DNA of 64,000 bases, from positions 633,329 to 697,328 of the forward strand of contig JAQUNI010000001.1 in the NCBI GenBank assembly GCA_028717685.1, in the 5' to 3' direction. A program made the position numbers and the translations under genes. A model generated the notes under the pieces. That model did no database searches. It was given only the letters and a program-made list of their open reading frames with translations, and had not been told where the DNA came from. This stretch comes from Patescibacteria group bacterium (GTDB lineage Bacteria; Patescibacteriota; JAQUNI01). Positions 7,152-62,873 of this stretch are shown here, piece by piece. The first letter of the stretch is position 1. The number at the start of each line of letters is the position of its first letter.

Positions 7152-7239
7152 GGGAGAGGTCGCATAGTTGGTTTATTGCGCACGCTTGGAAAGCGTGTAT
7201 GCCGCAAGGCATCGCGAGTTCGAATCTCGCCCTCTCCGC
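7152..7239 (+). tRNA. tRNA-Ser (anticodon GGA)
   Basis: Manual fold: acceptor GGAGAGG/CCTCTCC; anticodon stem CACGC/GCGTG with loop TTGGAAA (anticodon GGA); long variable arm ATGCC-GCAA-GGCAT; T-arm GCGAG-TTCGAAT-CTCGC; discriminator G. CCA is not encoded. Confidence 0.85.
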
Positions 7240-7348
7240 CTTCGCCTCGCCGAAGCCCGTAATGGCGGAGGCGGGCTTCGCCACGCTGAAAGCTACGCCC
7301 TGCTGAAGGCGGGCTTCGCTCGGCTACGGCGTGATAAATCCGCCAAAT
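7237..7348. other. GC-rich structured trailer after tRNA-Ser
   Basis: CGCCTCGCCGAAGCCCG / GGCGGAGGCGGGCTTCGCC / GGCGGGCTTCGCTCGGC are repeated GC motifs forming hairpins. It shares CGCCTCGCC-GAAGC and GGCGGGC strings with the 58003-58128 island. Confidence 0.45.
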
Positions 7349-7785: not shown

Positions 7786-7912
7786 AAAATTCTAACTTTG
7801 TCTCGCGCTCTCCGCCAAGTTGTGCTTTTAGCGAAATTGAAAGATGTTGCCTCGCACGCTCGAATTTTTATTCCGCCAAAGAAAAATTTAAAAATGGTTT
7901 GCACTATAAAAT

Positions 7913-8641
7913 ATGAGTGATAGACTAATTACAACTTTATTCATGCTTAGCTCTGTTGATGGAAAAATTTCCACTGGTGATACCGATAATATGGATACTG
8001 ATTCTGATTTTCGCAAGATAAAAGGAATAAAAGAGGGAGTTCAGCAGTATTATGATCTTGAAAAAACCACGGATATGCATTTTTTGATCACGGGCAGAGT
8101 GATGACAAAAAATTGCGAATCGTTAAATGTAAATAATAGAAAAGACGAGCCGGCTAAGCTTCCGGCTAACTGCATAATCGTAGACGGAGTTCATTTGCAA
8201 GAAAGTGGCATTCTATATCTTTTAAAAAAGTTTAATTCATTAACTGTCGTAACAGCCAATAGAAATCATCCAGCAGAAAAAGTCAAATCAAAAAATTTAA
8301 AAATAATTAGTTATCAAGATGAGATTAATTTTTTGGATTTATTGAGAAAACTAAAATCGGATTATGGCATTGAAAGATTAACTATCCAGTCTGGGAGCAC
8401 AATGAATGCCGCACTTTTGAGGGCTAATTTAATTGATCATATTTCACTCGTAGTTGCGCCTTGCTTGATTGGTGGGAAAGACACGGTTAGTTTGATTGGC
8501 GGAGAATCATTGCATTCTTTGAATGAGCTAAAACAGATTAAAGCGTTAAAACTCAAGCGGTGCGATGTATTAGAAAATTCGTACTTGCATTTGCAATATG
8601 ATGTTATTAACAAAACAGAAGTTGAAAAATTTGTTATGTAG
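7913..8641 (+). CDS. RibD C-terminal domain / DHFR-like reductase family protein
   Basis: LITTLFMLSSVDGKIS...IIVDG...LIDHISLVVAPCLIGG resembles bacterial bifunctional deaminase-reductase C-terminal (RibD_C/DHFR-like) proteins. Confidence 0.6.
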   Translation: MSDRLITTLFMLSSVDGKISTGDTDNMDTDSDFRKIKGIKEGVQQYYDLEKTTDMHFLITGRVMTKNCESLNVNNRKDEPAKLPANCIIVDGVHLQESGILYLLKKFNSLTVVTANRNHPAEKVKSKNLKIISYQDEINFLDLLRKLKSDYGIERLTIQSGSTMNAALLRANLIDHISLVVAPCLIGGKDTVSLIGGESLHSLNELKQIKALKLKRCDVLENSYLHLQYDVINKTEVEKFVM

Positions 8642-16173: not shown

Positions 16174-17964
16174 ATGAATGAGGTTGAAGAAATTAAAAAT
16201 CGGCTTAATGTTGCCGATGTAATCGCGGACTATATCCAATTGACGCCGGTCGGCGCCAATTTCAAAGCCCGTTGTCCTTTTCACAGCGAGAAAACGCCAT
16301 CTTTTTATGTTTCGCCGGAAAAGCAGATTTGGCATTGTTTCGGGTGTGAAGCGGGCGGTGACATTTTTACTTTTGTCCAAAAAATGGAGGGGCTTGAATT
16401 TCGGGAGGCGCTCAAGATTTTGGCCGATAAGGCGGGCGTAAAGTTGGAAGCGCGCGATCCGAATTTGGAAACAGAACGCGATAGACTGGTTAGCCTTTGC
16501 GAGTGGGCGGCGCGCTTTTTTCACCAGGCTCTTTTGCGTTCCCGTGAGGGGAAGATCGCCAGGGATTATCTGGTTTCGCGCAAGGTTGGAGAAAAAATGA
16601 TCCAGAAATTTCTGCTTGGCTATTCTCCTTTTTCCTGGAATCTCACTATGGATTTTCTGCGCAAGAAAGGGTTTTCCGCGGCGGAGATTTTCGCCGCAGG
16701 GCTTGCGAGCCAAAAAACCCCGGGCAGATTTTATGATCGTTTTCGGGGACGACTGACATTCCCTTTGCGCAACATCCACGGTCAGACAGTTGGTTTTGGC
16801 GCACGGGTTTTAAATGAAGAGAGGGATCATTTGGGCAAGTATATTAATTCTCCTCAAAGCCTGATTTATGATAAAAGCGGCTTGCTTTACGCCTTGGATC
16901 AAGCGAAACAGATGATTAAAAAAGAAAATCTCTGCATCGCAGTGGAAGGATATTTGGATGTGATCTCCTCCCATCAGGCAGGGGTCACCAACGTGGTGGG
17001 CGTTTCGGGTACTGCTCTTACTTCCGCTCAACTTGCTTTAATGAAAAGGTATACCCATAATCTTGCGCTTTGCTTTGACGCGGACATGGCTGGAGTCGGA
17101 GCCGCCAAGCGCGGCATTGAAAACGCAATCGCGGCTGGCTTAGCTGTCCGCGTCATTATTTTACCTAAAGACGAGGATCCCGATTCTTTGATCAGGAAAA
17201 ATCCAGAGCTTTGGCGTGAAGCCACCAAGCGAGCAGTCGGAATTATGGAATTCTATTTTGATCTAGCTTTAAAGCGTTACAACCCAGAGGATCTTGCGGG
17301 AAAGAAAATGATTGCCGCTGAAGTTTTACCAACAGTTAAAAAAATACCAGACCAGATTGAACAAGCCTATTATTTACAAAAGTTGTCATCTCTCATTAAC
17401 ATTCGCGAGGAATCTTTGCGCGAGGCAATGGCTAGAATAGATTTAACTTTTCAATATTCTCAAAATCCTGATCGCAATACTGTCGCACCGCCAGCGGATT
17501 TTAGCCCTGCGCCCGCGGATATCGTAGGCCGCCGTCTTTTAGGTCTCGGCTTAAAATACCCCCGTTTTTTAGGGGAAATTTTAGAGGAATCCAAACCCTC
17601 TATTTTATCCTCCGAATGGCAGGATATTTACAAAGTCTTAAGCGAATATTATAATAAGAGAAGGAGCTTTGATTTTATTCATTTTAAGCGAAAAATTCAG
17701 ACTTCCCATCCGCAGTATGTCACGCGTTTAGAAGTGGCTATTTTAGATGTGGAAAAAGATTTAGAAGAAAATGACCAAAAGGAGGACATTATCGCTTTAG
17801 AGGTGCAACAGGCTTTAAAAAGGCTTAAGGAGCAGTATTATAGACAAAAATTAGAAGCGATTGAACTTCAAATGCAGAGAGCGGAAAATATCAAAGATAG
17901 AATTCTCTTACAGAGTTTGACTAAACAACTTCAATCTTTCACCCAAAAATTGGGGAAATTATAG
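16174..17964 (+). CDS. dnaG: DNA primase
   Basis: CHC2 zinc finger (CPFHSEKTPSFYV...WHCFGC) and a Toprim domain (EGYLDVIS...). Confidence 0.9.
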   Translation: MNEVEEIKNRLNVADVIADYIQLTPVGANFKARCPFHSEKTPSFYVSPEKQIWHCFGCEAGGDIFTFVQKMEGLEFREALKILADKAGVKLEARDPNLETERDRLVSLCEWAARFFHQALLRSREGKIARDYLVSRKVGEKMIQKFLLGYSPFSWNLTMDFLRKKGFSAAEIFAAGLASQKTPGRFYDRFRGRLTFPLRNIHGQTVGFGARVLNEERDHLGKYINSPQSLIYDKSGLLYALDQAKQMIKKENLCIAVEGYLDVISSHQAGVTNVVGVSGTALTSAQLALMKRYTHNLALCFDADMAGVGAAKRGIENAIAAGLAVRVIILPKDEDPDSLIRKNPELWREATKRAVGIMEFYFDLALKRYNPEDLAGKKMIAAEVLPTVKKIPDQIEQAYYLQKLSSLINIREESLREAMARIDLTFQYSQNPDRNTVAPPADFSPAPADIVGRRLLGLGLKYPRFLGEILEESKPSILSSEWQDIYKVLSEYYNKRRSFDFIHFKRKIQTSHPQYVTRLEVAILDVEKDLEENDQKEDIIALEVQQALKRLKEQYYRQKLEAIELQMQRAENIKDRILLQSLTKQLQSFTQKLGKL

Positions 17965-19391: not shown

Positions 19392-19397
19392 AGTAGC

Positions 19398-19428
19398 AAT
19401 CGGTAATCAGTAACTGGTAATCGGTAAT
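19398..19428. repeat. Left arm of inverted repeat flanking the four-helix-bundle gene
   Basis: AATCGGTAATCAGTAACTGGTAATCGGTAAT. Its reverse complement recurs at 19817-19850 (GTAATCAGTAA...TCGGTAAT shared). Confidence 0.6.
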
Positions 19429-19809
19429 ATGAATATTATAGATAAAAAGATCGTCAAATTTTATGATCTGGAGGCTTGGCAGAAGGCTTATGAATTGGTC
19501 TTGGAAATTTATAAGATTACAAAGTTATTTCCCAAGGAAGAATTGTTTGGGATGACAAGCCAATTAAGAAGAGCGGCGGCTTCAATAGTAGCTAATATCG
19601 CAGAAGGTTTTGCGAGATACCATTATAAAGATAAGGTAAAGTTTTATTACCAAGCACGCGGTTCGGTTGCCGAGGTTCAAACCTTTTTGTTATTAGCCAA
19701 AGATTTAAAATATATTGATTTAAAAATTTGTAAATATTTAGGGGAAAAGTGCAATGAGGTAGGAAAGCTGATTAATGGTTTGATTCGTTCCATTGAGAAA
19801 CAAAAATAG
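19429..19809 (+). CDS. Four-helix-bundle protein (23S rRNA intervening-sequence protein family)
   Basis: The sequence features EAWQKAYELVLEIYKITKLFPKEELFGMTSQLRRAAASIVANIAEGFAR...ARGSVAEVQTFLLLAKDL are diagnostic of the PF05635 family. Confidence 0.75.
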   Translation: MNIIDKKIVKFYDLEAWQKAYELVLEIYKITKLFPKEELFGMTSQLRRAAASIVANIAEGFARYHYKDKVKFYYQARGSVAEVQTFLLLAKDLKYIDLKICKYLGEKCNEVGKLINGLIRSIEKQK

Positions 19810-19816
19810 TTTATGA

Positions 19817-19850
19817 ATTACTAATTACTAATTACCGATTACTGATTACG
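19817..19850. repeat. Right arm of inverted repeat flanking the four-helix-bundle gene
   Basis: ATTACTAATTACTAATTACCGATTACTGATTACG is the imperfect reverse complement of 19398-19428. Confidence 0.6.
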
Positions 19851-19857
19851 AATATAT

Positions 19858-19931
19858 TCCGCGATAGCTCAATGGTAGAGCAACTGGCTGTTAACCAGTG
19901 GGTTGCAGGTTCGAGTCCTGCTCGCGGAGCC
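19858..19931 (+). tRNA. tRNA-Asn (anticodon GTT)
   Basis: Manual fold: acceptor TCCGCGA/TCGCGGA; D-arm GCTC-AATGGTA-GAGC; anticodon stem ACTGG/CCAGT with loop CTGTTAA; T-arm GCAGG-TTCGAGT-CCTGC; discriminator G. Confidence 0.85.
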
Positions 19932-20373: not shown

Positions 20374-20406
20374 AAAAAAATGGCTTATTTAAGCCATTTT
20401 TTGGTT
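20374..20406. promoter_or_regulatory. Family-A palindrome copy 1 (AAAAAAATGGCTTATTTAAGCCATTTTTTGGTT) upstream of TTGATA -35-like boxes
   Basis: Perfect A/T-flanked palindrome. TTGATA hexamers follow at 20424 and 20455. Confidence 0.6.
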
Positions 20407-20537
20407 AAAATTAGTAAAAATGATTGATAAAGTGTTGCTAAATATTACGTCTCTTTGATAAATTAGTAAAAAGTTATAAAATACATAGATCTTAATAATT
20501 TAAAGATAACTAAAAAGAAAGTATAAGAAGAAAGGAA

Positions 20538-22864: not shown

Positions 22865-22908
22865 ATCTTAAGGATTACCGTTATCCGCTCCGTCTAAGAT
22901 ATAATGAG

Positions 22909-22977
22909 TAGCAGACCACGTCGCTCGCGAGCCCCGTCGCTCTTGAGCGACAGGGCGAGCGGCGTGGCAGGGCAAGG
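22909..22977 (+). other. GC-rich structured 5' leader element
   Basis: GTCGCTCGCGAGCCCCGTCGCTCTTGAGCGACAGGGCGAGCGGCG forms interlocking stems. It is preceded by a TATAAT -10 at about 22900. Confidence 0.45.
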
Positions 22978-23049
22978 TAAAATATGATAAACTAAGCTTG
23001 CGGGTTTAAATCAGGAGATATTTTCACTAAAAATATTAAAACAAAAAAT

Positions 23050-26066: not shown

Positions 26067-26159
26067 AAATTTAATGCCGCAAAATCCTAAAAGTTTATTT
26101 TGTTTTTTTTATTCATTCTGATTCAAAATTAAAATCCAGTAATTTTTTCCTAGGGGAAA

Positions 26160-26197
26160 TTGGGGTCAGATCTTGTATCTTGACCTCTTTTTATTTT
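26160..26197 (+). terminator. Family-B conserved terminator copy 1
   Basis: TTGGGGTCAGATCTTGTATCTTGACCTCTTTTTATTTT. Confidence 0.6.
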
Positions 26198-26238: not shown

Positions 26239-26269
26239 AAAAATGGCTTATTACAGCCATTTTTTGGTT
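26239..26269. promoter_or_regulatory. Family-A palindrome copy 2 upstream of TTGACA/TATCAT promoter
   Basis: AAAAATGGCTTATTACAGCCATTTTTTGGTT, then TTGACA at 26277 and TATCAT 17 nt later. Confidence 0.6.
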
Positions 26270-26619
26270 AAATAATTTGACAAAATAATTCAACTGTTTT
26301 ATCATTATATTTTATAACTCATAATTTACTGAAAGAGGCGATTTTTTGAAACACGAACATTGTTTTTTGGAAGATAGACTTTTTCAGTAGAATAGAGAGT
26401 TTCAATCTCTATCCTAGTAATGATAATGATTTATAAGTTCTACTGTTCATTCACAATTGAATAAGGTTAGAAAATCTTGAAATTTCTGTGAGGAGGAAAT
26501 GATGAAATCAAAGAATTATAATAAGAGATGGTTGGAAAAGTAGAGGTTATTTTTTAGCTATCTTTAGTTACGCTTGATTAGTAGGATACAAGGGTGTGAA
26601 AATCAAGAAGGAGAAAAAA

Positions 26620-34169: not shown

Positions 34170-34262
34170 TAAGATGTTTGGAAAGTATCGTTTTTCCGAG
34201 AGCGCAAATATAGTAACTCCCAAAATACTAGGACCTAAATCCGAAGAACTATTAAGAATAAA

Positions 34263-34301
34263 TTTGGGGTCAAGTCTTAAAGCTTGACCTTTTTTTATTT
34301 T
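34263..34301 (+). terminator. Family-B conserved terminator copy 2
   Basis: TTTGGGGTCAAGTCTTAAAGCTTGACCTTTTTTTATTTT with a perfect 7-bp GGTCAAG/CTTGACC stem. Confidence 0.7.
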
Positions 34302-35626: not shown

Positions 35627-35644
35627 AGCTATAAATTTTAAAAA

Positions 35645-35684
35645 GTTTGGGGTCAGGTCTAAAAAATTTAACCTCTTTTTTATT
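35645..35684 (+). terminator. Family-B element copy 3 (stem degenerate)
   Basis: TTTGGGGTCAGGTCTAAAAAATTTAACCTCTTTTTTATTT. The sequence is conserved but the 3' arm is mutated (TAACC for TGACC). Confidence 0.5.
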
Positions 35685-35742
35685 TGTTGGCTCCACAGCC
35701 TTCGCTAACGCTTAAGACTATGGAGCCAACAACTGACATCTA

Positions 35743-35771
35743 AAATGGCTTACTTAAGCTATTTTTGGTTT
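35743..35771. promoter_or_regulatory. Family-A palindrome copy 3 upstream of a TTGACA promoter
   Basis: AAAATGGCTTACTTAAGCTATTTTTGGTT, then TTGACA at 35785. Confidence 0.55.
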
Positions 35772-35995
35772 TGAATAGTAAATATTGACAAAAAGTAGAT
35801 AGTATGCTATTCTATGAGCATAGTTCTTTGTAAATGAGACTTACCGAAATTTTACCGATTTTCCTTATTTTACCTCTGCTATTTCAGAGATTTAATTATT
35901 TTAGATGCCTGAAATGGCAGAGGTTAGTTTTGTCCATCTGTTGTCGCGTAAATTTAGTTGTAATAGTAAATGGGATAAAACCCAAGGAGAGAAAG

Positions 35996-36292
35996 ATGAA
36001 GATATTAAAGTTTTTAGCAATAGCAGTGACATTTTTGTTGGGTATTGTTTTTGCGATTTTTACAGTATTATTAGGGATAGGATATTTATCCATGGTTTTT
36101 ACTGGTACCCACTTATCTGCCGAAGAGCAGACAGAAATCTTGCTTATGGGTCTGCCAATATCTGCTTCCTGTTTGGGATTGGGGTATGTCTCTTATGGAT
36201 TTTTCTCTTTTTTCCACTGGTTGCGGAAACGTTGGTTTCAGGTGAACAGAGAGGAGAAATTTGGGGTCAGGACATTTGGGGTCAGGTTTTGA
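35996..36292 (+). CDS. Small membrane protein, hypothetical
   Basis: ATG at 35996 after GGAGAGAAAG, in frame with ORF 35834. Three TM helices. The 3' end overlaps family-B copy 4. Confidence 0.4.
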   Translation: MKILKFLAIAVTFLLGIVFAIFTVLLGIGYLSMVFTGTHLSAEEQTEILLMGLPISASCLGLGYVSYGFFSFFHWLRKRWFQVNREEKFGVRTFGVRF

Positions 36293-36313
36293 AACTTGAC
36301 CTCTTTTTTTATT
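36259..36313 (+). terminator. Family-B conserved terminator copy 4 with internal duplication
   Basis: ATTTGGGGTCAGG occurs twice in tandem, then TTTTGAAACTTGACCTCTTTTTTTATTT. Confidence 0.6.
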
Positions 36314-39757: not shown

Positions 39758-39763
39758 TAGTAA

Positions 39764-39794
39764 ACCCCGTTAGAGAGTCGTTCTCTAATGGGGT
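39764..39794 (+). terminator. Family-C conserved hairpin copy 1
   Basis: ACCCCGTTAGAGA-GTCGT-TCTCTAATGGGGT, starting 7 nt after the stop codon. Confidence 0.65.
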
Positions 39795-40009
39795 AAATAA
39801 CGAAATCGCAGAACCATAAGGAGGTGTGCATTTTGACTACACTTTTTTTGAGCTGACTAATTAAACAGGTTCTAACCCTTCGGCTTAGTTCGATAGGTAT
39901 GACGGTGAGCCCGTCGAACCGATAACTATAAATTGCTTGAGGGCAGGCGTTCGTCCCGAGAGGACTTGAGCCCCGAGGGGCTATTGTCTACGATGCGGAG
40001 TTTATATTA

Positions 40010-40043
40010 AAAAAATGGCTTAAATAAAGCCATTTTTTGTTTC
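40010..40043. promoter_or_regulatory. Family-A palindrome copy 4 upstream of a TTGACT promoter
   Basis: AAAAAATGGCTTAAATAAAGCCATTTTTTGTT, then TTGACT at 40049. Confidence 0.6.
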
Positions 40044-40217
40044 CAGTATTGACTTATCCGACAAAATAGGAAATAATGATGTTTATAGGATTTATTTTTT
40101 TTATTGAGATGGTTCTTTTTTACTAAAATTAATCTAGTATATTAAGCGGCAGAAGCGACCTTTGAGATGTATATAATATTTTTTGAAGTAATCATTATTT
40201 TTTGTGGAGGTGAAGAT

Positions 40218-48927: not shown

Positions 48928-48960
48928 AAACCTCGGCAAAACTTGCGCCGAGGTTTATTG
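48928..48960. terminator. Bidirectional terminator between convergent genes
   Basis: AAACCTCGGCAAAACTTGCGCCGAGGTTT with A/T runs on both sides. Confidence 0.6.
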
Positions 48961-48983
48961 TCTTTAAATAAAAGGACTCTAAT

Positions 48984-49688
48984 CTAGAATTCTTTCACTG
49001 TGCCAAATAAAAAACTCTCCATTATTTTTTGCCAGATGCGCGGCAATACTTGGAGGGACAATGTTTCTGAATCTTGGTTCCAGTCAATTTTAGCTTGCTC
49101 CACGTTTTTTTTGTCCAAAATAATACCGTACACTTCACTCTCTTCAGTAATACTACCCGAGTAAGGAGAGATATTGGCCATATAAGCATGGAGGGTGACC
49201 GTAGCAATATGCTCATTGCTGGTATAAATCGTTTTTAAGATTTCGCCCATCTTGAGCAGAGTATTCCTTTTAGCAGTTTTAGTGTCTAAATAGTAGTCAG
49301 TGTTAAATTCCAAGCTGACGCCATAATTTTCCTCCTTGGTCATTTGGCGGACAACGAGCAGAGAGGAGATGCGCAGATAAGGCTGCCCTACATTATTATT
49401 GCCAGCCAAGACATTTTTGATTTTAGACTCAATGTCGTGGATTGTTGCCTCTTCTTGTGCTTTTTCTCTGGCCGAACGTTGCTCTAATTCTTCAGCCGTT
49501 TCGGCGATTTTTTCCTCCTGTCTGGAAACTGGTCCGTATTTTTCTTGAATCTTTTTGCGGTGGAGATATTTGGGAATGATCACGGCTAATATAATTATCA
49601 TCACGATAAAGATAATCACTCCTATGATAATAACCTTTTTATTTTGCATCAATTTTTGGAGCATAGATTTGTTTTTATTTTTTTGCAC
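48984..49688 (-). CDS. Membrane-anchored hypothetical protein
   Basis: N-terminal TM helix. 234 aa. Confidence 0.5.
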   Translation of the reverse strand: MQKNKNKSMLQKLMQNKKVIIIGVIIFIVMIIILAVIIPKYLHRKKIQEKYGPVSRQEEKIAETAEELEQRSAREKAQEEATIHDIESKIKNVLAGNNNVGQPYLRISSLLVVRQMTKEENYGVSLEFNTDYYLDTKTAKRNTLLKMGEILKTIYTSNEHIATVTLHAYMANISPYSGSITEESEVYGIILDKKNVEQAKIDWNQDSETLSLQVLPRIWQKIMESFLFGTVKEF

Positions 49689-49776
49689 CTTTATTATAGT
49701 TTATTCCACCCAAGATAACAACGGAAGGGTTTACCCCTATTTTTATTGATGCTATAATATTTAATACTAATCAAAT

Positions 49777-50178: not shown

Positions 50179-50241
50179 GCCGTCTATTAGCGAGCGAACT
50201 TCAATATCCTTTATTTTACAAAAATGAGAGATGAGTGGGGG

Positions 50242-50350
50242 AACGAAGCAATTTTATTGATGACTATGTTCAAAGTCATTCCAATAATTTTTTAAAGCTC
50301 AATGAATATTGAGTTTTATGAAATTGCTTCGTTGTCCGCCTGGGGCGGAC
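50242..50350 (+). other. Structured intergenic element (13-bp perfect inverted repeat enclosing two hairpins, plus GC hairpin)
   Basis: AACGAAGCAATTT at 50242 pairs with AAATTGCTTCGTT at 50321. Internal hairpins GATGACT/AGTCATT and CTCAAT/ATTGAG. GTCCGCC-TGG-GGCGGAC at 50334-50350. Confidence 0.5.
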
Positions 50351-50365
50351 TCCTCGCAATAACAA

Positions 50366-50815
50366 ATGGATAATACTAAAAAACCCGGAGTGGGCGTAGG
50401 AGTAATGCTTTTGAAAGAGGGTAAGGTCTTGCTCGGCAAACGGCATTTTGATGCGGCGCGAGCGGACAGCGAGCTCCACGGCGAAGGCACTTGGACTATG
50501 CCCGGCGGCAAATTGCATTTTCACGAAGAATTAGAGGGCGCGGCGTATCGCGAGGTTTTGGAGGAAACAGGGGTGACCATTAATCAAAAAAAACTAAAGA
50601 TGTTTAGTGTCACCAATGATATTGTGAAAGATGCGCATTTTGTGACCATTGGTTTTTTATGCGAAGATTTTCAAGGCGAACCAAAGGTAATGGAACCCGA
50701 TGAAATTACAGAATGGCGCTGGTTTGCTTTAGACAAGCTCCCTCGCCCCATTTTCTTCCCGAGTAGAAAGATTTTAAATCAATACCAAAATTTTATAGAC
50801 TTGAATCACAAGTAA
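50366..50815 (+). CDS. NUDIX hydrolase
   Basis: Nudix box GGKLHFHEELEGAAYREVLEETGV. Confidence 0.8.
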   Translation: MDNTKKPGVGVGVMLLKEGKVLLGKRHFDAARADSELHGEGTWTMPGGKLHFHEELEGAAYREVLEETGVTINQKKLKMFSVTNDIVKDAHFVTIGFLCEDFQGEPKVMEPDEITEWRWFALDKLPRPIFFPSRKILNQYQNFIDLNHK

Positions 50816-50884: not shown

Positions 50885-51913
50885 ATGCGGTTTGTTAAAT
50901 ATTTTTTAGTAATGATCTTTATTCTGATTGCGGTTTTTGTGATTTATCCGAAATTAAAGATTTCTTTTCATGAGATCCCTTTGTTATTTCAAGAGGCAAA
51001 TAAGTTTTTGATTCTACTTCTTTTAGGGCTTCAGGTCGTTGTTTATTTAGGGGATGGTTGGCTCTCTAAATTACTTTTAGGAATAGCGGGTTTTCCCTTA
51101 AGCATCAGAGATACTTTGAAGGTGGCAATTTTAGGCAATTTAGGCAACCAAACAATACCTGTTACGGGGGGGCCGGCTGCGACTTACTATTTTTATCGTA
51201 AACTCAAGGTCCCTCCTGAAGGGATTTTTTTCTTGGTTTGGACTTGGTTCATTTCTGTCTGGGGCGTAAATCTTTTTTTCTTTCTTGTGGCGCTTTTTTT
51301 TCTGCCGGGCTCAATCTTGGGCTTAATTCAGCAAAAATTTTTCTTTGTTTTTTTGGTTCTTTTTGCGACACTTTTATTTATGAGTTATTTTTTATTGAGA
51401 AACCAGGGAAAGAGCCTCTTTTTTATTCTCCGTCCGTTGCTTGCGTTCGCGAATAAAATCGGTAGGCATTTTCACAATAAAAATTTCATCACGCCAAAAC
51501 GGTTAAAAAGATTTGTGGCTGGAATGAGCGGAGGTTTACGCTTTTTGTGGTCTAATAAAAGCAAACTTCCTAAGATTATCCTCGCTTCCTCTATATTTTA
51601 TCTAGGGACGATTGCCACCCTTTATTCTGCTTTTTTAGTTTTTGGTTTTAGACCCAATCCTTTCTATGTGATTTTTGGCTTTACGGTTTCTTCTATTTTA
51701 GCTCTTTTAACCTTTATGCCCGAGGCGCCAGGCGTTATAGAGGCTTCTCTTAGCGGGGTGTTTGTGGGTTTAGGTTTTCCCGCTCACATTGCTTTATTTG
51801 CGGCGATTTTATTTCGTTTTTTTTCTTACTGGATTTTTTTCCCTTTGGGACTCCATCTTTTTTTGACTTTGAGAAGAAAAAATAAACAAACTAACGATGT
51901 CAGAGAGCCTTAA
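50885..51913 (+). CDS. Polytopic membrane protein (flippase-like / LPG-synthase-TM-like), hypothetical
   Basis: Eight predicted TM helices. Adjacent to a membrane GT2. Confidence 0.45.
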   Translation: MRFVKYFLVMIFILIAVFVIYPKLKISFHEIPLLFQEANKFLILLLLGLQVVVYLGDGWLSKLLLGIAGFPLSIRDTLKVAILGNLGNQTIPVTGGPAATYYFYRKLKVPPEGIFFLVWTWFISVWGVNLFFFLVALFFLPGSILGLIQQKFFFVFLVLFATLLFMSYFLLRNQGKSLFFILRPLLAFANKIGRHFHNKNFITPKRLKRFVAGMSGGLRFLWSNKSKLPKIILASSIFYLGTIATLYSAFLVFGFRPNPFYVIFGFTVSSILALLTFMPEAPGVIEASLSGVFVGLGFPAHIALFAAILFRFFSYWIFFPLGLHLFLTLRRKNKQTNDVREP

Positions 51914-53318
51914 AGAAAAACTAGCCCTGGTCCTGATCGCATATTGGGCGACTATCTTGGCGGCGCGCAGTTTTATTTTTTATTACGGGAACAAAAATCT
52001 AGCCGCACCTTTGATTATGATTGGCGGATTTCATATTTACCACTTTATTATTGGTCTTTTTTTGATTTTAATTTTTGGTGGCTTATTTTATCTATTGGGT
52101 TTGCAAAGAAATTTTTTTTCCCTTACTTTTTTGGGCATAGGACTTGGGCTTTTGTTTGATGAATTGTCTTTTTTATTTAGTTTGCGGTTCAACGACTATT
52201 GGGGGGTGCGCAATTTTCTGGCTATTGCGATTTTGGGACTCCCTTTGTCTTTATTTGTGTTTTGGCCAAAGAGGAAGCGGACAGAAGAGACTCCTGTTTC
52301 TAAAAGAATGTTTAATCGCAAGTCGGGCAGGCATTTTATTTCCGTAGTGATTCCAGCATTTAATGAGGAGAAATTTTTAGCAAGGAGCCTTCAAAGCCTT
52401 GCACGCCAAAGTTATCAAGATTTTGAACTTATTGTAGTAGATAACAATTCACAAGATAAAACGCGGGAGATTGCCGAAAGTTTCGGCACCAAAGTTATTT
52501 TTGAACCAAAAAGGGGGGTAGAGTGTGCGCGGCAGGCAGGGTTTCAGGCTGCCCAAGGGAAAATTATCGCGACTACTGACGCAGATACAGTTTTACCGCG
52601 AGATTGGCTGGAGCGCATTGTGCTGGAATTTAAAAAAGATAAGAATTTAGTTGCCTTTGGTGGTCTTTATATCCTTGATTCAGGGACATTTCCAGCTAAG
52701 TTAGGTGTATATTATTTTCTTTACCCAATCTGGATTTGGGACCGGTTAATCTCTGGTGGTTGGAGTTTGGCTGGAGCTAATTTGGCGGTGTGCAAAAGAG
52801 CTTTCTTAAAGGTTGGCGGTTTTACGCCAGAGATCAAACTGGGTGAAGATATCAATCTTGCTCGGAAACTCAAGGCCGTTGGCAGGGTGAAGCTGGACCC
52901 TCATTTTCGAGTACGCACCTCGGGACGGCGTTTTAAGGATGGTCTTTTAAGGGCGCTTTTTACTTATGCGCCCAATCGTATCGCGAGCACAGTTTTTGCC
53001 CGAGAAAAATTTCATCACCATTTTCCCACTATTCGCACGGAAACATCGTTGTTTCAGAGATCATTTTTGCTTCCCCTTTTGTTCGCTACTCTCTTTCTTT
53101 TCTTTTTATTTTATTTTTCGAACCCCTTAATTTCCGAAGCCAAGGGCGTGAAGCTCATCAAACGAGGCGTTGCTTCTCCTGTGCGAGAGGTAAAGAAAAA
53201 TAGCAAAGAGATGAAGAATTTTTTCGTGAAAGCCGAAAAGGGCATCAAGAGCGGGAAAAGATTGCAACACTATAAAATATGGAAATTTCCAAAATTACAT
53301 CACCTCAAGTTTTCTTGA
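51897..53318 (+). CDS. Membrane glycosyltransferase family 2
   Basis: N-terminal four-TM domain then GT2 (ISVVIPAFNEEKFL...ELIVVDNNSQD...TDADT). Confidence 0.75.
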   Translation: MSESLKEKLALVLIAYWATILAARSFIFYYGNKNLAAPLIMIGGFHIYHFIIGLFLILIFGGLFYLLGLQRNFFSLTFLGIGLGLLFDELSFLFSLRFNDYWGVRNFLAIAILGLPLSLFVFWPKRKRTEETPVSKRMFNRKSGRHFISVVIPAFNEEKFLARSLQSLARQSYQDFELIVVDNNSQDKTREIAESFGTKVIFEPKRGVECARQAGFQAAQGKIIATTDADTVLPRDWLERIVLEFKKDKNLVAFGGLYILDSGTFPAKLGVYYFLYPIWIWDRLISGGWSLAGANLAVCKRAFLKVGGFTPEIKLGEDINLARKLKAVGRVKLDPHFRVRTSGRRFKDGLLRALFTYAPNRIASTVFAREKFHHHFPTIRTETSLFQRSFLLPLLFATLFLFFLFYFSNPLISEAKGVKLIKRGVASPVREVKKNSKEMKNFFVKAEKGIKSGKRLQHYKIWKFPKLHHLKFS

Positions 53319-53869
53319 CCTTTGATGACGGACCGAGCGCGCCTTTCACCAATGAGATTTTAGATATTTTAGCAGGGTTTCAAGTGCTGGCTTCTTTTTT
53401 TGTTTGCGGCAAAAATGTAGAGCGGCATCCCGAAATTGCCAAAAGGATTGCGGCGGGCGGGCATACGCTTGGCAATCATAGTTATTCCCATTCTCGTTTT
53501 TTATCTTTGACTGGCTGTTTATCTTCCGAAATAGAAAAAACCCAATCCATTATCCAAGAAGTTACGGGAGTGAGGGTAAAATTTTTTCGGCCTCCTTGGG
53601 GGTATGTTCGTCCTTGGCTTGCAAGTTATCTCAAAAAGCAAGGTTACCAATTAGCGCTTTGGGATATAAAAGTTTATGATTGGCAAAAGCCGGCTGCCGC
53701 CATTATTGCTAAGCGAGTTTTACAAAAAGTGAAACCGAACGCTGTTATTCTTCTGCATGATGGCGATAGAACCCGCCTTTCCTGTGACCGTTCCCAGACC
53801 GTTCTTGCCCTTCCTATGATTATTCAGAACTTAAAAGAAAAAGGTTATACATTCGGTAAAATTGTTTAG
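53279..53869 (+). CDS. Polysaccharide deacetylase (NodB homology domain)
   Basis: LTFDDGPS...HTLGNHSYSH...FFRPPWG...ILLHDG motifs. Confidence 0.8.
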   Translation: MEISKITSPQVFLTFDDGPSAPFTNEILDILAGFQVLASFFVCGKNVERHPEIAKRIAAGGHTLGNHSYSHSRFLSLTGCLSSEIEKTQSIIQEVTGVRVKFFRPPWGYVRPWLASYLKKQGYQLALWDIKVYDWQKPAAAIIAKRVLQKVKPNAVILLHDGDRTRLSCDRSQTVLALPMIIQNLKEKGYTFGKIV

Positions 53870-55678: not shown

Positions 55679-57922
55679 GTGATGGAAGAAGTTAATGTAT
55701 TTATTCCCGGGAAGATTGTGCGGTTGTCGGTAGAAGATATAGAAGGTAATCAAAGCGAGGAACGCTTTAAGGTTCAAAGGAGACTCGGCACGGGTTACGC
55801 TGGCGAAGTCTATCTCTTGACCCATCAGGATTCAAAAGAGAAGGTGGTCTTGAAAATTCTGCGTTCGGGCAATTTTTTAAAGAGAATTATCGCGCTCTTG
55901 GCGCGGCTATTCGCCACTTCTGATTTTGCTTGGTGTGAGGCGGAGGTAAAGATGGCGGTTTTGCACCGTACGCTTTTACCCCTTGCAGTTAAAAAGAGGA
56001 TAGGAAGAGATTATCTCATCCCTTCTTGGCGCCGCAGTTATACTCGGATTCCAGAAAAGAAGGCGTGGGGAATTTTTTTAGAGTATGATGATCTCCGTTC
56101 TGCCTATCACGGGACATTGTCCGGAGTAGATGATCTAGAGGTTAAAGAGCGGGCGAGGACAGCCCATATTTTGATTGATTATTTCAAGGGGATTGGCGCC
56201 CTTGCCTTTGCTTGGCAGTTTAATCATTTTAAGCGCGAGCCGAGAGGCAAATGGTATGTTTGGTGCACTTTGTTTTGCGCCTTAGCCGTTCTTCTTCTCA
56301 CCATCTTTCTAAATCTTCCTTATGACCCGAAAGTGAATATGCTGGGGGTTTTGTGCCTCTTTTTCGGTCTCGCGGGCGCCTCTTGGTTATCCGCAGATAA
56401 TCTGAAGAAAAGTGAAAAGCACGGATTTTTCCGCGGTCCGGATTTAGAGCTTGGAATGCCGCACATTGGATTCTGTCTGCCTGTAGGGTTTCTGGTTGTG
56501 TCAGCTCTCTTCCTGATGCATAAATTTTGGGGACTTTCTCCCTCTTGGGCGATTTTTTTAGCCTTACTCTTTTCTCCGGGCTATCTTTTCTTGTTCGAGT
56601 TGCCCTTGTTTTGGGAGAATATCAAGAAGGGTTACCCTATTCCTTTCGGACAATTAGAGATAGAGGAATTTGCTTATGCTTTTGGGGGTGATCCGGAATT
56701 AAAAGAAGATATTGAGCAATATCGCTCTCTGCTTTATCAGTTTGAGTCGGGAAGGCTTAATCCGATTAATCGTTTGTTCGCTTTGTTGGTTTTAAGGCGG
56801 CTTTTGCCTTTTTCCGGGCGGGAATGGCGGCGGCGCACTATTGAACGTTGGGGACTAAAGGGAAAAAACACTTCAGGGCAAGCGCAGAAGATGTGGGAAA
56901 GTTTTGCTTATTATTTTTTCTTTCTGGCGGTAAGTTTGTTTGGTATAATCCCTTGGCGTTTTATGCTGGACCGTGCTTTTCGCCAGAGGCAAATCGTTTA
57001 TTGGAAGATGAGGCGGCTGGAAAAGATGTTGCAAAAAGGACAGATAAGCCGTCGGACAGCGAGAGAATTAGCTCTAGATAGAGTAAGCTTATTTTCTTTT
57101 TTCCTAAGCTCCGTTTTAATTCGGAAGTTTTATCGCCTTGCTTTTGAGCGGCATTATCGGAGGCTTTTTCTGCGCAATACTTTCAAGATTTTCTGGAACA
57201 GAGAGTTTCTGAAAAGGCGGGCGGTCGCTCGTTTTCAGCGCTATCTGACGAATCAAAGGCGCGATGGCCGCATCACAGACCAATATTATTACAGGATAAA
57301 GCGTTTGCAAGAAGTAACCGCTATTCACTGGTGGTTAATCCTGTATTTTAGCTTGCTTGCCCCTAAGTCAATCACCTGGTCTGTGCGCATCGCGGCAATT
57401 TCAGGGTTTTTGATGGCTCGGAAGTTATTAGACATAATGCCGGGATTGCCTAACTGGCTTGCCGAGATCATCAGGTATGATATTGTTCCGCACGTGCCGG
57501 GCTGGCTTGCCGTCATTCTTTTAGCGATGGGGATTACAGCCTTATATGAGATTGTGGCCACACTAATCTTCGGAGCGTTTTTTCTCCTGCGGCTTATTCC
57601 GCGGCTGAAGATGGAGAGGTTTCTAGCGGGTCGAGTTATCGTGGCTTTGTTGAATTTTTTCCTGTATGTTATTTTCGCTTGCCTAAACGGCATTCCCGGG
57701 TTTTCTATCGTGGGAGTGCCGTTGGCTGTGTCTTCAACCCCTTACCGCTCTCCCTTTTGGCTGTTGACGATAATCCGTTGGCAGTCATTGTTCTTGGGAT
57801 TTATCCGTCTCATATCCCTTGGGATGTGGGATAAAGGAGGACTGGGGGAATTCTATTTTGCCGAGCTTGGCGTTAACAGCCAAGCCCGTATTATCCTTAA
57901 ACTTTGTGCCCTGCCTGCTTGA
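55679..57922 (+). CDS. Large polytopic membrane protein with N-terminal soluble domain, hypothetical
   Basis: Roughly 150 aa soluble N-terminal region then more than 12 TM helices. R-rich cytoplasmic loops. Confidence 0.5.
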   Translation: MMEEVNVFIPGKIVRLSVEDIEGNQSEERFKVQRRLGTGYAGEVYLLTHQDSKEKVVLKILRSGNFLKRIIALLARLFATSDFAWCEAEVKMAVLHRTLLPLAVKKRIGRDYLIPSWRRSYTRIPEKKAWGIFLEYDDLRSAYHGTLSGVDDLEVKERARTAHILIDYFKGIGALAFAWQFNHFKREPRGKWYVWCTLFCALAVLLLTIFLNLPYDPKVNMLGVLCLFFGLAGASWLSADNLKKSEKHGFFRGPDLELGMPHIGFCLPVGFLVVSALFLMHKFWGLSPSWAIFLALLFSPGYLFLFELPLFWENIKKGYPIPFGQLEIEEFAYAFGGDPELKEDIEQYRSLLYQFESGRLNPINRLFALLVLRRLLPFSGREWRRRTIERWGLKGKNTSGQAQKMWESFAYYFFFLAVSLFGIIPWRFMLDRAFRQRQIVYWKMRRLEKMLQKGQISRRTARELALDRVSLFSFFLSSVLIRKFYRLAFERHYRRLFLRNTFKIFWNREFLKRRAVARFQRYLTNQRRDGRITDQYYYRIKRLQEVTAIHWWLILYFSLLAPKSITWSVRIAAISGFLMARKLLDIMPGLPNWLAEIIRYDIVPHVPGWLAVILLAMGITALYEIVATLIFGAFFLLRLIPRLKMERFLAGRVIVALLNFFLYVIFACLNGIPGFSIVGVPLAVSSTPYRSPFWLLTIIRWQSLFLGFIRLISLGMWDKGGLGEFYFAELGVNSQARIILKLCALPA

Positions 57923-58002
57923 AAAACAGCGCAGGGTTTTTTTATTTTGTATTTTGAATTACGAAATATATTTTGTCATTGTGGGCGATTTTTTCTCCTC
58001 TT

Positions 58003-58128
58003 GACCTGCGGGAGGTGGGGAGGGGTCTAATTTATAGATAGATGACTATTCTCCCACCCCCTCCCCGCCCGCCTCGCCTGAAGCGAAGCGATGGCGGGCA
58101 GGCATCTCCCCCTCGGGCAGGGGGAGTG
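58003..58128. other. GC-rich structured island (G-tract/C-tract hairpins)
   Basis: GGGAGGTGGGGAGGGG...CTCCCACCCCCTCCCCGCCCGCCTCGCC...GGCGGGCAGGC...CTCCCCCTCGGGCAGGGGGAG. GC content is far above the local background. Confidence 0.5.
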
Positions 58129-58169
58129 GATACATTTCGTAATTCAAGCTTTTGTAATATAATGGGGTT

Positions 58170-58847
58170 ATGATAAACAATAGAATTTCCCGAGCCGTCA
58201 TTCAAAAAATAGAAAAAGAAGCTAAAGCATATTTTCGCGGCGCGAGCGGCTGCCACGACTGGAGTCATGTGGAAAGGGTCTTAAAGCTTGCGCTTCATTT
58301 GGGTCGCAGAGAAAAAGCGGATTTAGGCATTTTAGAGGTCGCGGCTTTATTGCATGATATCGGACGGCGCGAAGAAATGAAGGCGAAAGGCGCTTTCTGC
58401 CATGCTGAAGCTGGGTCTGCCTTGGCGCAAAAAATTCTAGGGAAGTATAAATTTAATAAAGACACGGTGAGGAATATTATTCATTGCATCAGGACTCACC
58501 GTTTTCGCGACCGCCGGAATGTTCCGAAAACCATTGAAGCTAAAGCGCTGTTTGACGCAGATAAACTGGATTCGATCGGCGCGGTGGGTTTGGGACGCGC
58601 CTTTCTCTTCGCGGGTGGTCCGGGTTCGGGCAATCTTTATACGGGCAATGAGAGACATTTAGCGAAAACAGGACGCGACTACTCTTTTACCAAAGAGGAC
58701 TCTGCTTTTCTGGAATACGAAATTAAACTGAAAAAAATTAAAGATGTAATGCTTACTGCAAGCGGCAGGAGGATTGCCCTTGGCCGGCATCGTTTTATGG
58801 TTAATTTTTGGCAGCAGTTTTGGCAGGAGGTAGAGGGGAGAAAATAA
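58170..58847 (+). CDS. HD-domain phosphohydrolase
   Basis: H..H...HDIGR motifs (CHDWSHVERV...AALLHDIGRRE...D). Confidence 0.8.
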   Translation: MINNRISRAVIQKIEKEAKAYFRGASGCHDWSHVERVLKLALHLGRREKADLGILEVAALLHDIGRREEMKAKGAFCHAEAGSALAQKILGKYKFNKDTVRNIIHCIRTHRFRDRRNVPKTIEAKALFDADKLDSIGAVGLGRAFLFAGGPGSGNLYTGNERHLAKTGRDYSFTKEDSAFLEYEIKLKKIKDVMLTASGRRIALGRHRFMVNFWQQFWQEVEGRK

Positions 58848-60088: not shown

Positions 60089-60181
60089 ATGGATTAGCGA
60101 CAGCCCTTGAAGAGACTACTATATAAGACCATCTTTAAGATGTCGTTCTGGGAGATTATGTGGTAAAATAGAAATAGAAAT

Positions 60182-60336
60182 AGGACTTTCGCGTTGGGTA
60201 ATAATTAAATTGAATATACTTATTGTCATTCCCGCCCCGTAATAAATACGGGGTAAACTCCAGCGGGAATCCAGGATTAGTGCTATCAATCTGGATCCCC
60301 GATCGGGTCGGGGATGACATTAAACGCGAAAGTCCT
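60182..60336 (+). other. Structured element with 14-bp perfect terminal inverted repeats (candidate cis-regulatory RNA, ncRNA or MITE)
   Basis: AGGACTTTCGCGTT...AACGCGAAAGTCCT enclose three hairpins (TTCCCGC[CCCCGTAATAAATACGGGG]...GCGGGAA; CCAGGATT...AATCTGG; TCCCCGA-TCGGG-TCGGGGA). It ends 17 nt upstream of the ATG at 60354. Confidence 0.5.
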
Positions 60337-60353
60337 GAAATTAAAATAAAAAT

Positions 60354-62777: not shown

Positions 62778-62848
62778 GAAAGGAAGGGATAATTTAACGC
62801 CCTTTAATTTAACCCGAATATTATCAATAATTAAAATTGCTTGGCACT

Positions 62849-62873
62849 CCTGCCTGCGTTCGTGGCAGGCAGG
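62849..62873. repeat. CCTGCCTGC hairpin (family D copy 2)
   Basis: CCTGCCTGC-GTTCGTG-GCAGGCAGG. Related to 17984-18027 (CATTCCTGCCTGCC...TCTGCCAGCAGGCATG). Confidence 0.5.

What the first reader, a model, noticed from the sequence alone, without database searches (positions are those of the whole stretch)
58003..58128. Extreme GC-rich G-tract/C-tract island in an AT-rich genome, upstream of an HD hydrolase gene
About 125 nt are composed largely of G-runs and C-runs: GGGAGGTGGGGAGGGG, then CTCCCACCCCCTCCCCGCCCGCCTCGCC, then GGCGGGCAGGC and CTCCCCCTCGGGCAGGGGGAG. GGGGAGGGG pairs perfectly with CCCCTCCCC across an AT-rich 35-nt loop, and a second 8-bp CTCCCCCT/AGGGGGAG hairpin follows. The G-runs could also form a G-quadruplex. 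The island shares the strings CGCCTCGCC-GAAGC and GGCGGGC with the GC-rich trailer after tRNA-Ser at 7237-7348, so these may be members of a dispersed GC-rich repeat. Such islands stand out compositionally. They could be structured RNAs, protein-binding sites, recombination hotspots or remnants of foreign DNA.
Basis: seen in the sequence. Interest (0 to 1): 0.55.

Follow-up and report, generated by a model that had tools for sequence, protein, structure and literature searches.

The report
GC-hairpin core of a palindromic repeat element
The GC-rich island is the hairpin-forming core of a small non-coding, inverted-repeat-bounded repeat element (MITE/REP-like) lying between a terminator and the HD-hydrolase gene of a tiny Doudnabacteria (CPR) genome; it is probably selfish or neutral DNA that is fast rearranging, not a new kind of gene or RNA.

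Summary
Window 58009-58128 is 65% GC against 40.6% overall and forms three GC-rich hairpins (RNA fold z = -4.8 on +, -6.8 on -).

It lies between the upstream gene's terminator and a TATAAT 6 nt before the HD start codon.

Three relatives (about 90% identity) keep the flanks and this repeat but carry rearranged or unrelated interiors:
- L014's interior is inverted relative to the window.
- L003's whole element is flipped relative to L014.
- A more distant relative (L021) has only the bare hairpin.

The inner ends, GTC(T)ATT(A)GCGAGG, recur at non-orthologous intergenic sites: window 50181-50366, whose central 89 nt is inverted in the relative, two loci in L015, and one in L018. Presence/absence differences are seen.

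The middle hairpin (58064-58103) is a window-specific insertion.

There are no Rfam, phage or plasmid matches, and no transposase in 64 kb.

Verdict: a MITE/REP-like modular palindromic element, a new member of a known kind, of modest interest.

The parts
57910..57945 (+). Intrinsic terminator of the upstream 747-aa membrane-protein gene (CCCTGC-CTG...CAG-C-GCAGGG followed by a T7 run).
   Evidence: Read from the sequence. Conserved in L003, L014, L018 and L021. A partial Rfam terminator-type alignment covers it.
57954..57967 (.). Left arm of the outer inverted repeat, TTGAATTACGAAAT.
   Evidence: Perfect 14-nt inverted repeat, with only these two copies in the window. Conserved in L003, L004 and L014. 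A homologous bare hairpin is present in L021.
57968..57989 (.). Degenerate 'A-type' inner terminal repeat (ATATTTTGTCATTGTGGGCG), a family signature.
   Evidence: Matches TTGTCATTGCGAGG with 3 mismatches. The 28-nt stretch TTGAATTACGAAATAYATTTTGTCATTG is shared with L004 and L014.
58010..58066 (.). Hairpin C: GGGAGGTGGGGAGGGG / CTCCCACCCCCTCCCC with an AT-rich loop. The 16 nt at 58030-58045 are a window-specific loop insertion.
   Evidence: Folds. Homologous in reverse complement to L014 GGGGGAGGGAGAATAGTAGACCCCTCC.
58053..58070 (-). The only canonical G-quadruplex motif (C-rich on the + strand).
   Evidence: Regex scan.
58064..58103 (.). Hairpin B module (stem GCCCGCC/GGCGGGC, 58067-58099). 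A 40-nt insertion absent from L014. Homologous to the tRNA-Ser 3' end plus trailer. Bases 58071-58098 are missing from the Logan contigs of the same strain.
58106..58126 (.). Hairpin A: CTCCCCCT-CGGGC-AGGGGGAG.
   Evidence: Folds. Homologous in reverse complement to L014 CACTCCCCCTGCCCTGAGCGGGGAG.
58134..58147 (.). Right arm of the outer inverted repeat, ATTTCGTAATTCAA. It overlaps the expected -35 region of the HD promoter.
58158..58163 (+). Conserved TATAAT 6 nt upstream of the HD start codon (58170), probably a leaderless promoter. It lies outside the element.
   Evidence: Identical in L003, L004 and L014. SD-less, TATAAT-proximal starts are common in this window.
50181..50366 (.). Second family copy, lying between two NUDIX genes. 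Left end CCGTCTATTAGCGAGC, right end CTCCTCGCAATAACAA, with three internal hairpins. The central 89 nt (50243-50331) is inverted in the ortholog L015.
7230..7283 (+). tRNA-Ser 3' acceptor strand plus GC-rich trailer hairpin, homologous to hairpin B of the island.
60179..60337 (.). Related-class 159-nt MITE with a 14-nt perfect terminal inverted repeat AGGACTTTCGCGTT, inner GTCATTCCCGC...GGGGATGAC ends and GC hairpins. Absent from L015, which shows the empty site.

Best explanation
The island is the GC-rich, hairpin-forming interior of a non-coding palindromic repeat element of about 180 nt (57954-58147). The element lies between the intrinsic terminator of the upstream gene and the probably leaderless promoter of the HD-NUDIX-YdjM gene cluster in a Doudnabacteria-like (CPR) genome.

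Architecture. The element is nested: an outer 14-nt inverted repeat, then inner imperfect terminal repeats GTC(T)ATT(A)GCGAGG, then a modular set of stem-loops.

Family. It belongs to a small dispersed family of MITE/REP-like elements that occupy intergenic DNA in this lineage.

How it evolves (shown):
- Inversion between its nested inverted repeats.
- Gain and loss of hairpin modules. The middle hairpin is a recent insertion related to the sequence after tRNA-Ser.
- Insertion or loss of whole elements.

Inferred: the copies spread or turn over by a DNA-level mechanism that recognises the terminal repeats or hairpins (a transposase encoded elsewhere, or recombination and template switching at hairpins). 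The element is essentially selfish or neutral. Any host effect would be a by-product of strong DNA/RNA secondary structure just upstream of the HD promoter, for example insulation from read-through.
For: Anatomy:
- Perfect 14-nt inverted repeat bracketing the island.
- Closed multi-hairpin fold, z = -4.8 on + and -6.8 on -.

Orthologs:
- L003 (HD protein 91% identical) and L014/L015 (upstream protein 89% identical) keep the terminator, the outer repeat and the promoter, but have different interiors.
- The window interior aligns to L014 only in reverse complement: score 47 vs 15 +/- 2.3 for shuffles, 0/300 as high.
- L003's end motifs are swapped relative to L014.
- L021 (same gene order, HD 64% identical) has only the bare hairpin.

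Family:
- The same terminal motifs occur at window 50181-50366, L015 7072-7246, L015 16949-16994 and L018 7908-7980, all intergenic.
- All fold as a closing stem plus hairpins, z about -4.4 to -6.3.

Dynamics:
- An 89-nt inversion at copy 2: 78/89 identical in reverse complement vs 62/92 forward.
- The L015 16927-17006 element is absent from the window.
- A clean 159-nt MITE with terminal repeats and a short target duplication is present in the window and absent in L015.
- Hairpin B is a 40-nt insertion homologous to 7230-7283.

No known RNA or coding identity: nothing credible in Rfam, and no phage or plasmid similarity.
Against: - Only two family copies are seen in the 64 kb. The genome-wide copy number is unknown.
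- No target-site duplication can be defined for the HD-locus copy or for copy 2.
- No transposase or recombinase domain was found in 61 ORFs of the window.
- Interiors differ far more between copies than is typical for MITEs.
- The + strand fold is more stable than the - strand in 4 of 10 elements, and the reverse is never true by much.
- One hairpin of copy 2 shows one compensatory and two wobble changes between orthologs (by eye). This hints at RNA-level constraint.
- The bare hairpin in L021 can be read either as the empty target or as a collapsed element.
Confidence: 0.55

Rival explanations
1. It is a structured RNA: either a cis-regulatory leader of the HD-NUDIX-YdjM genes or an independent small RNA. 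Its conserved closing stem and GC hairpins would act at the RNA level.
For: - Very stable folds.
- GNRA-type tetraloop (GUAA) and other short hairpins in the L003 version.
- The + (sense) strand is more stable in L003, copy 2, L015-3 and the tRNA trailer.
- Wobble and compensatory changes in a copy-2 hairpin (by eye).
Against: - It lies downstream of a strong terminator and upstream of a TATAAT only 6 nt from the ATG, so it is probably not in the HD mRNA.
- The interior is unrelated or inverted relative to the flanking genes in relatives of about 90% identity.
- It is absent from L021.
- There are no Rfam matches.
Confidence: 0.18
2. It is an invertible (phase-variable) DNA switch. A site-specific recombinase would flip the segment between the inverted repeats to control the HD operon.
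For: - The segment is bounded by inverted repeats.
- Orientation differs between relatives at two loci.
- Logan assemblies break inside the element in several samples.
Against: - No recombinase in 64 kb.
- No conserved promoter inside the flipped part. The TTGACC-19-TCTAAT in the window (read by eye) is not conserved in L014.
- The HD -10 lies outside the repeats.
- The inverted segments have since diverged by about 12%, so the inversions are old fixed events.
- The contig breaks bracket hairpin B, not the inverted-repeat boundaries.
Confidence: 0.07
3. It is a remnant attachment site or foreign DNA: a decayed copy of the tRNA-Ser 3' end plus downstream sequence left by an element that integrated at tRNA-Ser.
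For: A 52-nt direct-orientation similarity that includes 11 nt of the tRNA acceptor 3' strand. It scores 39 vs 16.5 +/- 2.8 for shuffles.
Against: - Identity is only about 78%, with 4 gaps.
- The 50.8 kb in between carries dnaG, rpoD and pyruvate kinase, and no integrase.
- L015 is collinear across the site and simply lacks the 40-nt module.
Confidence: 0.05
4. It is a G-quadruplex / i-motif or other non-B DNA regulatory site upstream of the HD promoter.
For: One canonical G4 motif on the minus strand at 58053-58070, about 100 nt upstream of the start codon. Only 3 such motifs occur in the 64 kb.
Against: - The + strand G-tracts fail the four-run rule.
- The L014 homolog has only two G-runs of 3 or more by eye.
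- The same bases are engaged in a strong Watson-Crick hairpin.
Confidence: 0.04

Closest known systems
MITEs with modular or variable interiors (pneumococcal BOX elements; enterobacterial ERIC/IRU; Neisseria Correia elements). Comparison from general knowledge.
   Same: Length of 100-200 nt. Terminal inverted repeats. Intergenic location near promoters or terminators. Folds into a long closed stem with internal hairpins. Presence/absence differences between close relatives. Modular gain and loss of internal units. The neighbouring 159-nt element at 60179-60337 shows the full MITE signature, including an empty site and a short target duplication.
   Different: For the island-bearing copy, no target duplication can be defined. 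Interiors are almost unrelated between copies. Few copies are seen. No parent IS or transposase has been identified. The host is a roughly 0.7-Mb CPR genome, and two literature searches found no description of such elements there.
REP / BIME / REPIN elements mobilised by RAYT transposases (PMC3116915, PMC3337134)
   Same: Extragenic imperfect palindromes. Two inverted end-units separated by a spacer form the larger hairpin, as in a REPIN. A conserved short linear motif (GTCATT) lies next to the stem, analogous to the GTAG of REPs (general knowledge). The position between co-directional genes matches.
   Different: The spacer is 100-150 nt and variable, not short. High copy number and near-identity of copies are not shown. 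No RAYT (Y1 transposase) gene occurs in the 64-kb window.
GC clusters of yeast mitochondrial DNA and Rickettsia palindromic elements (comparison from general knowledge)
   Same: Short GC-rich palindromic modules appearing as lineage-specific insertions in AT-richer non-coding DNA. Hairpin B (58064-58103) behaves this way and has a relative at 7230-7283.
   Different: Only two related copies are seen. There is no evidence of insertion into coding sequence. The taxon is unrelated.
Small hairpin-associated inversions ('flip-flop' of a loop between inverted-repeat arms), as known from chloroplast non-coding DNA, and invertible promoters (fimS-type invertons). Comparison from general knowledge.
   Same: Segments bounded by short inverted repeats are found in opposite orientation in close relatives at two loci.
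   Different: There is no recombinase and no promoter in the flipped segment. The inversions look like old, fixed events, not a switch.

Membership tests
MITE (non-autonomous TIR transposon) | Terminal inverted repeats bounding a short (<300 nt) non-coding sequence. | tested here: met
   Outer repeat is 14/14 nt. Inner GTC(T)ATT(A)GCGAGG ends occur in inverted pairs at 4 further loci.
MITE (non-autonomous TIR transposon) | Multiple dispersed copies in one genome. | tested here: inconclusive
   There are 2 copies in 64 kb of the window, 3 in 22 kb of L015 and 1 in 22 kb of L018. The rest of the 722-kb genome could not be read.
MITE (non-autonomous TIR transposon) | Target-site duplication and empty sites in relatives. 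| tested here: inconclusive
   Clean for the neighbouring 60179-60337 element. Roughly so for L015 16927-17006 vs window 62780 (GAAA on both sides by eye). For the HD-locus copy, only a bare hairpin in L021 was found, and no duplication can be defined.
MITE (non-autonomous TIR transposon) | A cognate autonomous element or transposase with the same terminal repeats. | tested here: not met
   No transposase or recombinase Pfam domain in 61 ORFs of the window. The remainder of the genome was not testable.
REP/REPIN-RAYT | Short imperfect palindrome with a conserved adjacent motif, occurring as inverted doublets. | tested here: met
   GTCATT/GTCTATTA + GCGAGG ... CCTCGC + AATGAC/TAATAGAC pairs.
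REP/REPIN-RAYT | Tens to hundreds of near-identical copies, and a RAYT gene flanked by REPs. | not testable with these tools
   Only 64 kb of the genome is held. No Y1 transposase occurs in it.
Known structured RNA family (riboswitch, ribozyme, sRNA) | Match to a curated covariance model. | tested here: not met
   Rfam 15 at gathering threshold finds only two tRNAs. At E<=10, only noise such as miRNA models below 19 bits was found.
Invertible promoter (inverton) | Inverted-repeat-bounded segment containing a promoter, with an adjacent or dedicated recombinase and both orientations in one population. | tested here: not met
   Inverted repeats are present and orientation differs between species. 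There is no recombinase and no conserved internal promoter (and by eye). Population reads are not available.
tRNA-linked integration (att) site | Exact or near-exact direct repeat of the tRNA 3' end bounding a mobile island that carries an integrase. | tested here: not met
   The repeat is only about 78% identical with gaps. The interval holds housekeeping genes and no integrase. L015 is collinear across the site.

The most novel reading that the evidence does not exclude
The GTCATT-ended hairpin modules would be the footprint of a widespread, still unassigned DNA-hairpin-recognising mobility or recombination system. This covers GTCATTGCGAGG...CCTCGCAATGAC here and the near-universal GTCATTCCCGC-N4-GCGGGAATGAC seen in viral contigs of 38-71% GC. 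The system would insert preferentially into the loops of existing hairpins, producing nested palindromes like this island, even in minimal CPR genomes that show no transposase nearby.
Probability: 0.1. Interest if true: 0.6.

Novelty: new member of a known kind. Interest (0 to 1): 0.3.

Why it matters
CPR/Patescibacteria genomes are very small (about 0.7 Mb here) and are generally considered streamlined. A family of palindromic, inverted-repeat-bounded elements that invert, swap hairpin modules and come and go between relatives of about 90% identity shows that intergenic DNA in these genomes is dynamic.

There are three practical consequences:
- Such elements break short-read assemblies. Logan contigs stop inside this one.
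- They generate spurious small ORFs.
- They can be mistaken for riboswitches or small RNAs.

If the GTCATT-hairpin modules prove to be a pan-bacterial class with a dedicated enzyme, that would be of wider interest. The present evidence does not require this.

Tried and rejected
- Known RNA families. Rfam at gathering threshold on the whole window, and at E<=10 on four element regions, gave only noise.
- Dispersed exact repeat within the window. The repeat finder and blastn-short found no second copy of the GC-rich interior. The only lead was the end motifs.
- Coding potential. The 43-aa proline-rich ORF 58042-58173 and the minus-strand ORFs lie in an interior that is not conserved in L003 or L014, so I treated them as spurious. 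I did not translate the relatives' interiors.
- Phage or plasmid origin. No blastn match.
- Genomic island bounded by tRNA-Ser-like repeats. Rejected on gene content and synteny.
- Assembly chimera. Rejected because both flanks are collinear in L003, L014/L015 and L021, and Logan contigs agree base for base outside 58071-58098.
- G4 on the + strand. Fails the four-run rule.
- nhmmer profile of the end motifs and a symmetric GTCAT...ATGAC scan found no further copies in about 143 kb of held CPR sequence.
- Literature. Searches for the motif string and for MITEs or palindromic repeats in Patescibacteria/CPR found nothing relevant.
- The NCBI 722-kb contig itself could not be retrieved through the look-ups, which returned only Logan fragments.

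Full report
**Context.** The window is 40.6% GC. Its proteins are named 'Patescibacteria group bacterium' in NCBI (locus tag PHW01_03405; longest contig 722,217 bp). The closest assembled relative is a Candidatus Doudnabacteria MAG, JBAZQX010000002.1 (L015, the same contig as L014). It is 89% identical at the protein level for the upstream gene and 89-92% at the DNA level in syntenic blocks.

The finding lies in the 247-nt spacer between two genes:
- A 747-aa membrane protein (55679-57922, +) that ends in a terminator hairpin plus T-run at 57910-57945.
- An HD-domain gene (58170-58847, +), followed by NUDIX and YdjM genes.

**Observation check.**
- Region 58009-58128 is 65% GC.
- By my comparison with the ORF list, it is one of only three non-coding stretches that reach about 68% GC in 60-nt windows. 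The others are the tRNA-Ser trailer and 22904-22982.
A third, GCCCGCC...GGCGGGC at 58067-58099, lies between them.
- The 227-nt spacer folds much better than dinucleotide shuffles: z = -4.81 on + and -6.83 on -.
- The + strand G-tracts do not satisfy the four-run G4 rule. The only canonical motif is on the minus strand, 58053-58070.

The island is bracketed by a perfect 14-nt inverted repeat, TTGAATTACGAAAT, at 57954-57967 and 58134-58147. These are its only occurrences in the window. In the predicted fold this repeat closes a multi-branch loop that carries the three GC hairpins.

Just outside the right arm is a TATAAT (58158-58163), 6 nt before the ATG. Most genes in the window lack a Shine-Dalgarno sequence, and several have a TATAAT-like hexamer a few bases before the start. 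The HD mRNA is therefore probably leaderless, and the element probably lies upstream of its promoter (inference).

**Orthologous loci.**
- L003 (ENA contig; HD protein 91% identical) and L014/L015 keep the terminator, the outer repeat and the TATAAT-ATG region almost base for base. What lies between the repeat arms differs.
- All versions fold as a closing stem plus several hairpins: z = -5.5 for L003 and -4.4 for L014.
- Next to the outer repeat, L003 and L014 each carry two inner end motifs. These are A = (T)TGTCATTGCGAGG and B = GTCTATTAGCGAGG, which are imperfect inverted repeats of each other.
- L003 has B on the left and A on the right. L014 has A on the left and B on the right. The whole element is therefore flipped between them, and their interiors align only in reverse complement (31 vs 15.4 +/- 2.4 for shuffles, 0/300).
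- The window keeps a degenerate A on the left and has lost the other end.
- The window's GC-rich interior aligns to L014's interior only in reverse complement: score 47 vs 15.0 +/- 2.3 for shuffles, 0/300, against 23 in the forward direction.
- Relative to L014 the window has two extra pieces. One is a 16-nt AT-rich loop insert (58030-58045). The other is the 40-nt hairpin-B module (58064-58103) (and inspection).
- A more distant relative with the same gene order, L021 (upstream protein 54%, HD 64% identical), has between the terminator and the HD gene only a simple hairpin, GGTAATTAACGAAC-TCCGA-GTTCGTTAATTTAAGG. This is homologous to the outer repeat and has no interior.
- Relatives at 80% HD identity have a different upstream gene and no element.

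**A dispersed family.**
- The A/B end motifs recur at other intergenic sites. In the window, 50181-50366 lies between two NUDIX genes, with left end CCGTCTATTAGCGAGC and right end CTCCTCGCAATAACAA. It is 37% GC and its fold has z = -6.3.
- Its ortholog in L015 (7072-7246) has the central 89 nt inverted: 78/89 identical in reverse complement without gaps, against 62/92 forward.
- L015 has a third, short copy (16949-16994), preceded by GAATTACGAAAC. It lies in an 80-nt insertion absent from the window.
- A distant relative, L018 (43% identity in the neighbouring protein), has a copy at another locus, 7908-7980.
- A 14-mer matched with at most 1 mismatch is not expected by chance in these lengths. 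Shuffles gave 0.1 symmetric hits per 64 kb.
- The window also contains a textbook MITE 2 kb downstream, at 60179-60337. It has 14-nt perfect terminal repeats, a target duplication of about 3-5 nt, and inner GTCATTCCCGC...GGGGATGAC ends with GC hairpins. L015 shows the empty site.
- Perfect GTCATT-stem hairpins of both kinds occur in unrelated viral-metagenome contigs of 38-72% GC: 3 contigs for the GCGAG type and 11 for the CCCGC type. The end-module type is therefore not restricted to this lineage.

**The tRNA-Ser link.** Region 58059-58110 aligns with 7230-7283, which comprises the last 11 nt of tRNA-Ser plus the first 43 nt or so of its trailer. The score is 39, against 16.5 +/- 2.8 for shuffles (0/1000) and at most 21 for other GC-rich segments. 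This corresponds essentially to hairpin B, the module that L014 lacks.

Logan contigs of the same strain end at 58070 (L016) and restart at 58099 (L001, L002). Exactly the inside of hairpin B is unassembled in those samples. This fits either a presence/absence polymorphism or a coverage dropout at a GC hairpin, and I cannot distinguish the two.

An attachment-site interpretation is rejected for three reasons. The 50.8 kb between the two copies carries dnaG, rpoD and pyruvate kinase. It carries no integrase. L015 is collinear across the site.

**Interpretation.**

Shown:
- The island is the interior of an element bounded by inverted repeats.
- The element belongs to a dispersed family defined by its ends.
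- The interior is modular and has been inverted, expanded and replaced among close relatives.
- Whole elements are gained or lost.
- No known RNA family, protein-coding signal, or phage or plasmid homology applies.

Inferred: the family is MITE/REP-like selfish or neutral DNA. Its ends or hairpins are substrates for a transposase encoded elsewhere, or for hairpin-mediated recombination. Any host effect comes from strong secondary structure immediately upstream of the HD promoter.

Points against, or unresolved:
- Few copies are seen.
- No transposase occurs in 61 ORFs.
- No target duplication can be defined for this copy.
- There is a mild trend for sense-strand RNA stability.
- One hairpin of copy 2 has one compensatory and two wobble substitutions (by eye). 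This keeps an RNA-level role alive at roughly 0.2.
- A phase-variation switch is unlikely. There is no recombinase and no conserved internal promoter, and the inverted segments have already diverged by about 12%.

**Novelty.** Modular palindromic MITE/REP-type elements are well known in other bacteria; REPINs and RAYTs are described in PMC3116915 and PMC3337134. My literature searches found no description of such elements in Patescibacteria/CPR. This is therefore a new member of a known kind, of modest interest.

Noticed in passing
window 60179-60337 (empty site at L015 ~14478): A 159-nt MITE with perfect 14-nt terminal repeats AGGACTTTCGCGTT/AACGCGAAAGTCCT, a target duplication of about 3-5 nt (GAA/GAAAT), and inner GTCATTCCCGC...GGGGATGAC ends with GC hairpins. 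It is present in the window and absent from the Doudnabacteria relative.
   Followed up: partly
L022-L035 (IMG/VR contigs): Perfect hairpins GTCATTCCCGC-N4-GCGGGAATGAC (11 contigs) and GTCATTGCGAG...CTCGCAATGAC (3 contigs) occur in unrelated viral-metagenome contigs of 38-72% GC. This suggests a very widespread GTCATT-stem hairpin class whose nature I could not establish.
   Followed up: partly
window 22916-22967: Another intergenic GC-rich hairpin with a stem of about 20 bp (CCACGTCGCTCGCGAGCCCCGTCGCTCTTGAGCGACAGGGCGAGCGGCGTGG). It starts about 12 nt after a TATAAT (22899-22904), upstream of the gene at 23050. Fold z = -3.3.
   Followed up: partly
window 62843-62867: GC hairpin CCTGCCTGCGTTCGTGGCAGGCAGG, present in the window but absent from the orthologous spacer of L015. 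That spacer instead carries an 80-nt A-type element (L015 16927-17006).
   Followed up: partly
window 19395-19421 / 19817-19843: A 27-nt inverted repeat (85% complementary) brackets a 126-aa 23S_rRNA_IVP / bAvd-like gene (19429-19809), immediately upstream of tRNA-Asn (19858-19931).
   Followed up: no
window 39760-40045: A hairpin-rich intergenic stretch of about 250 nt, ending in one of the repeated terminators. It has no Rfam match at E<=1 apart from noise and may be an unannotated ncRNA.
   Followed up: partly
window 26153-26197, 34257-34301, 35640-35684, 36269-36313; and 20377-20411, 26240-26274, 35742-35776, 40012-40046: Two families of near-identical terminator-like hairpins with T-runs (TTTGGGGTCAGGTC...GACCTCTTTTTTT and AAAATGGCTTATTTAAGCCATTTTTT), re-used after different genes.
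   Followed up: no
window 48941-49700 and 50885-53869: Two segments present in the window but absent from L015. One is a 234-aa minus-strand ORF of unknown function. The other is a 3.2-kb block encoding LPG_synthase_TM, a GT2 glycosyltransferase and a polysaccharide deacetylase. The same three-gene block lies near the HD gene in the 80%-identity relatives L005-L011.
   Followed up: no
window-wide gene starts (e.g. 7369, 7913, 49777, 58170): Most genes lack a Shine-Dalgarno sequence. Several have a TATAAT-like hexamer 5-10 nt before the ATG, suggesting widespread leaderless mRNAs in this organism.
   Followed up: no
window 7241-7348: The tRNA-Ser trailer contains an internal direct repeat GGCGGGCTTCGC (7270 and 7308) as well as the hairpin-B-like module. 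A GIY-YIG nuclease gene (6825-7145) lies immediately upstream of the tRNA.
   Followed up: partly
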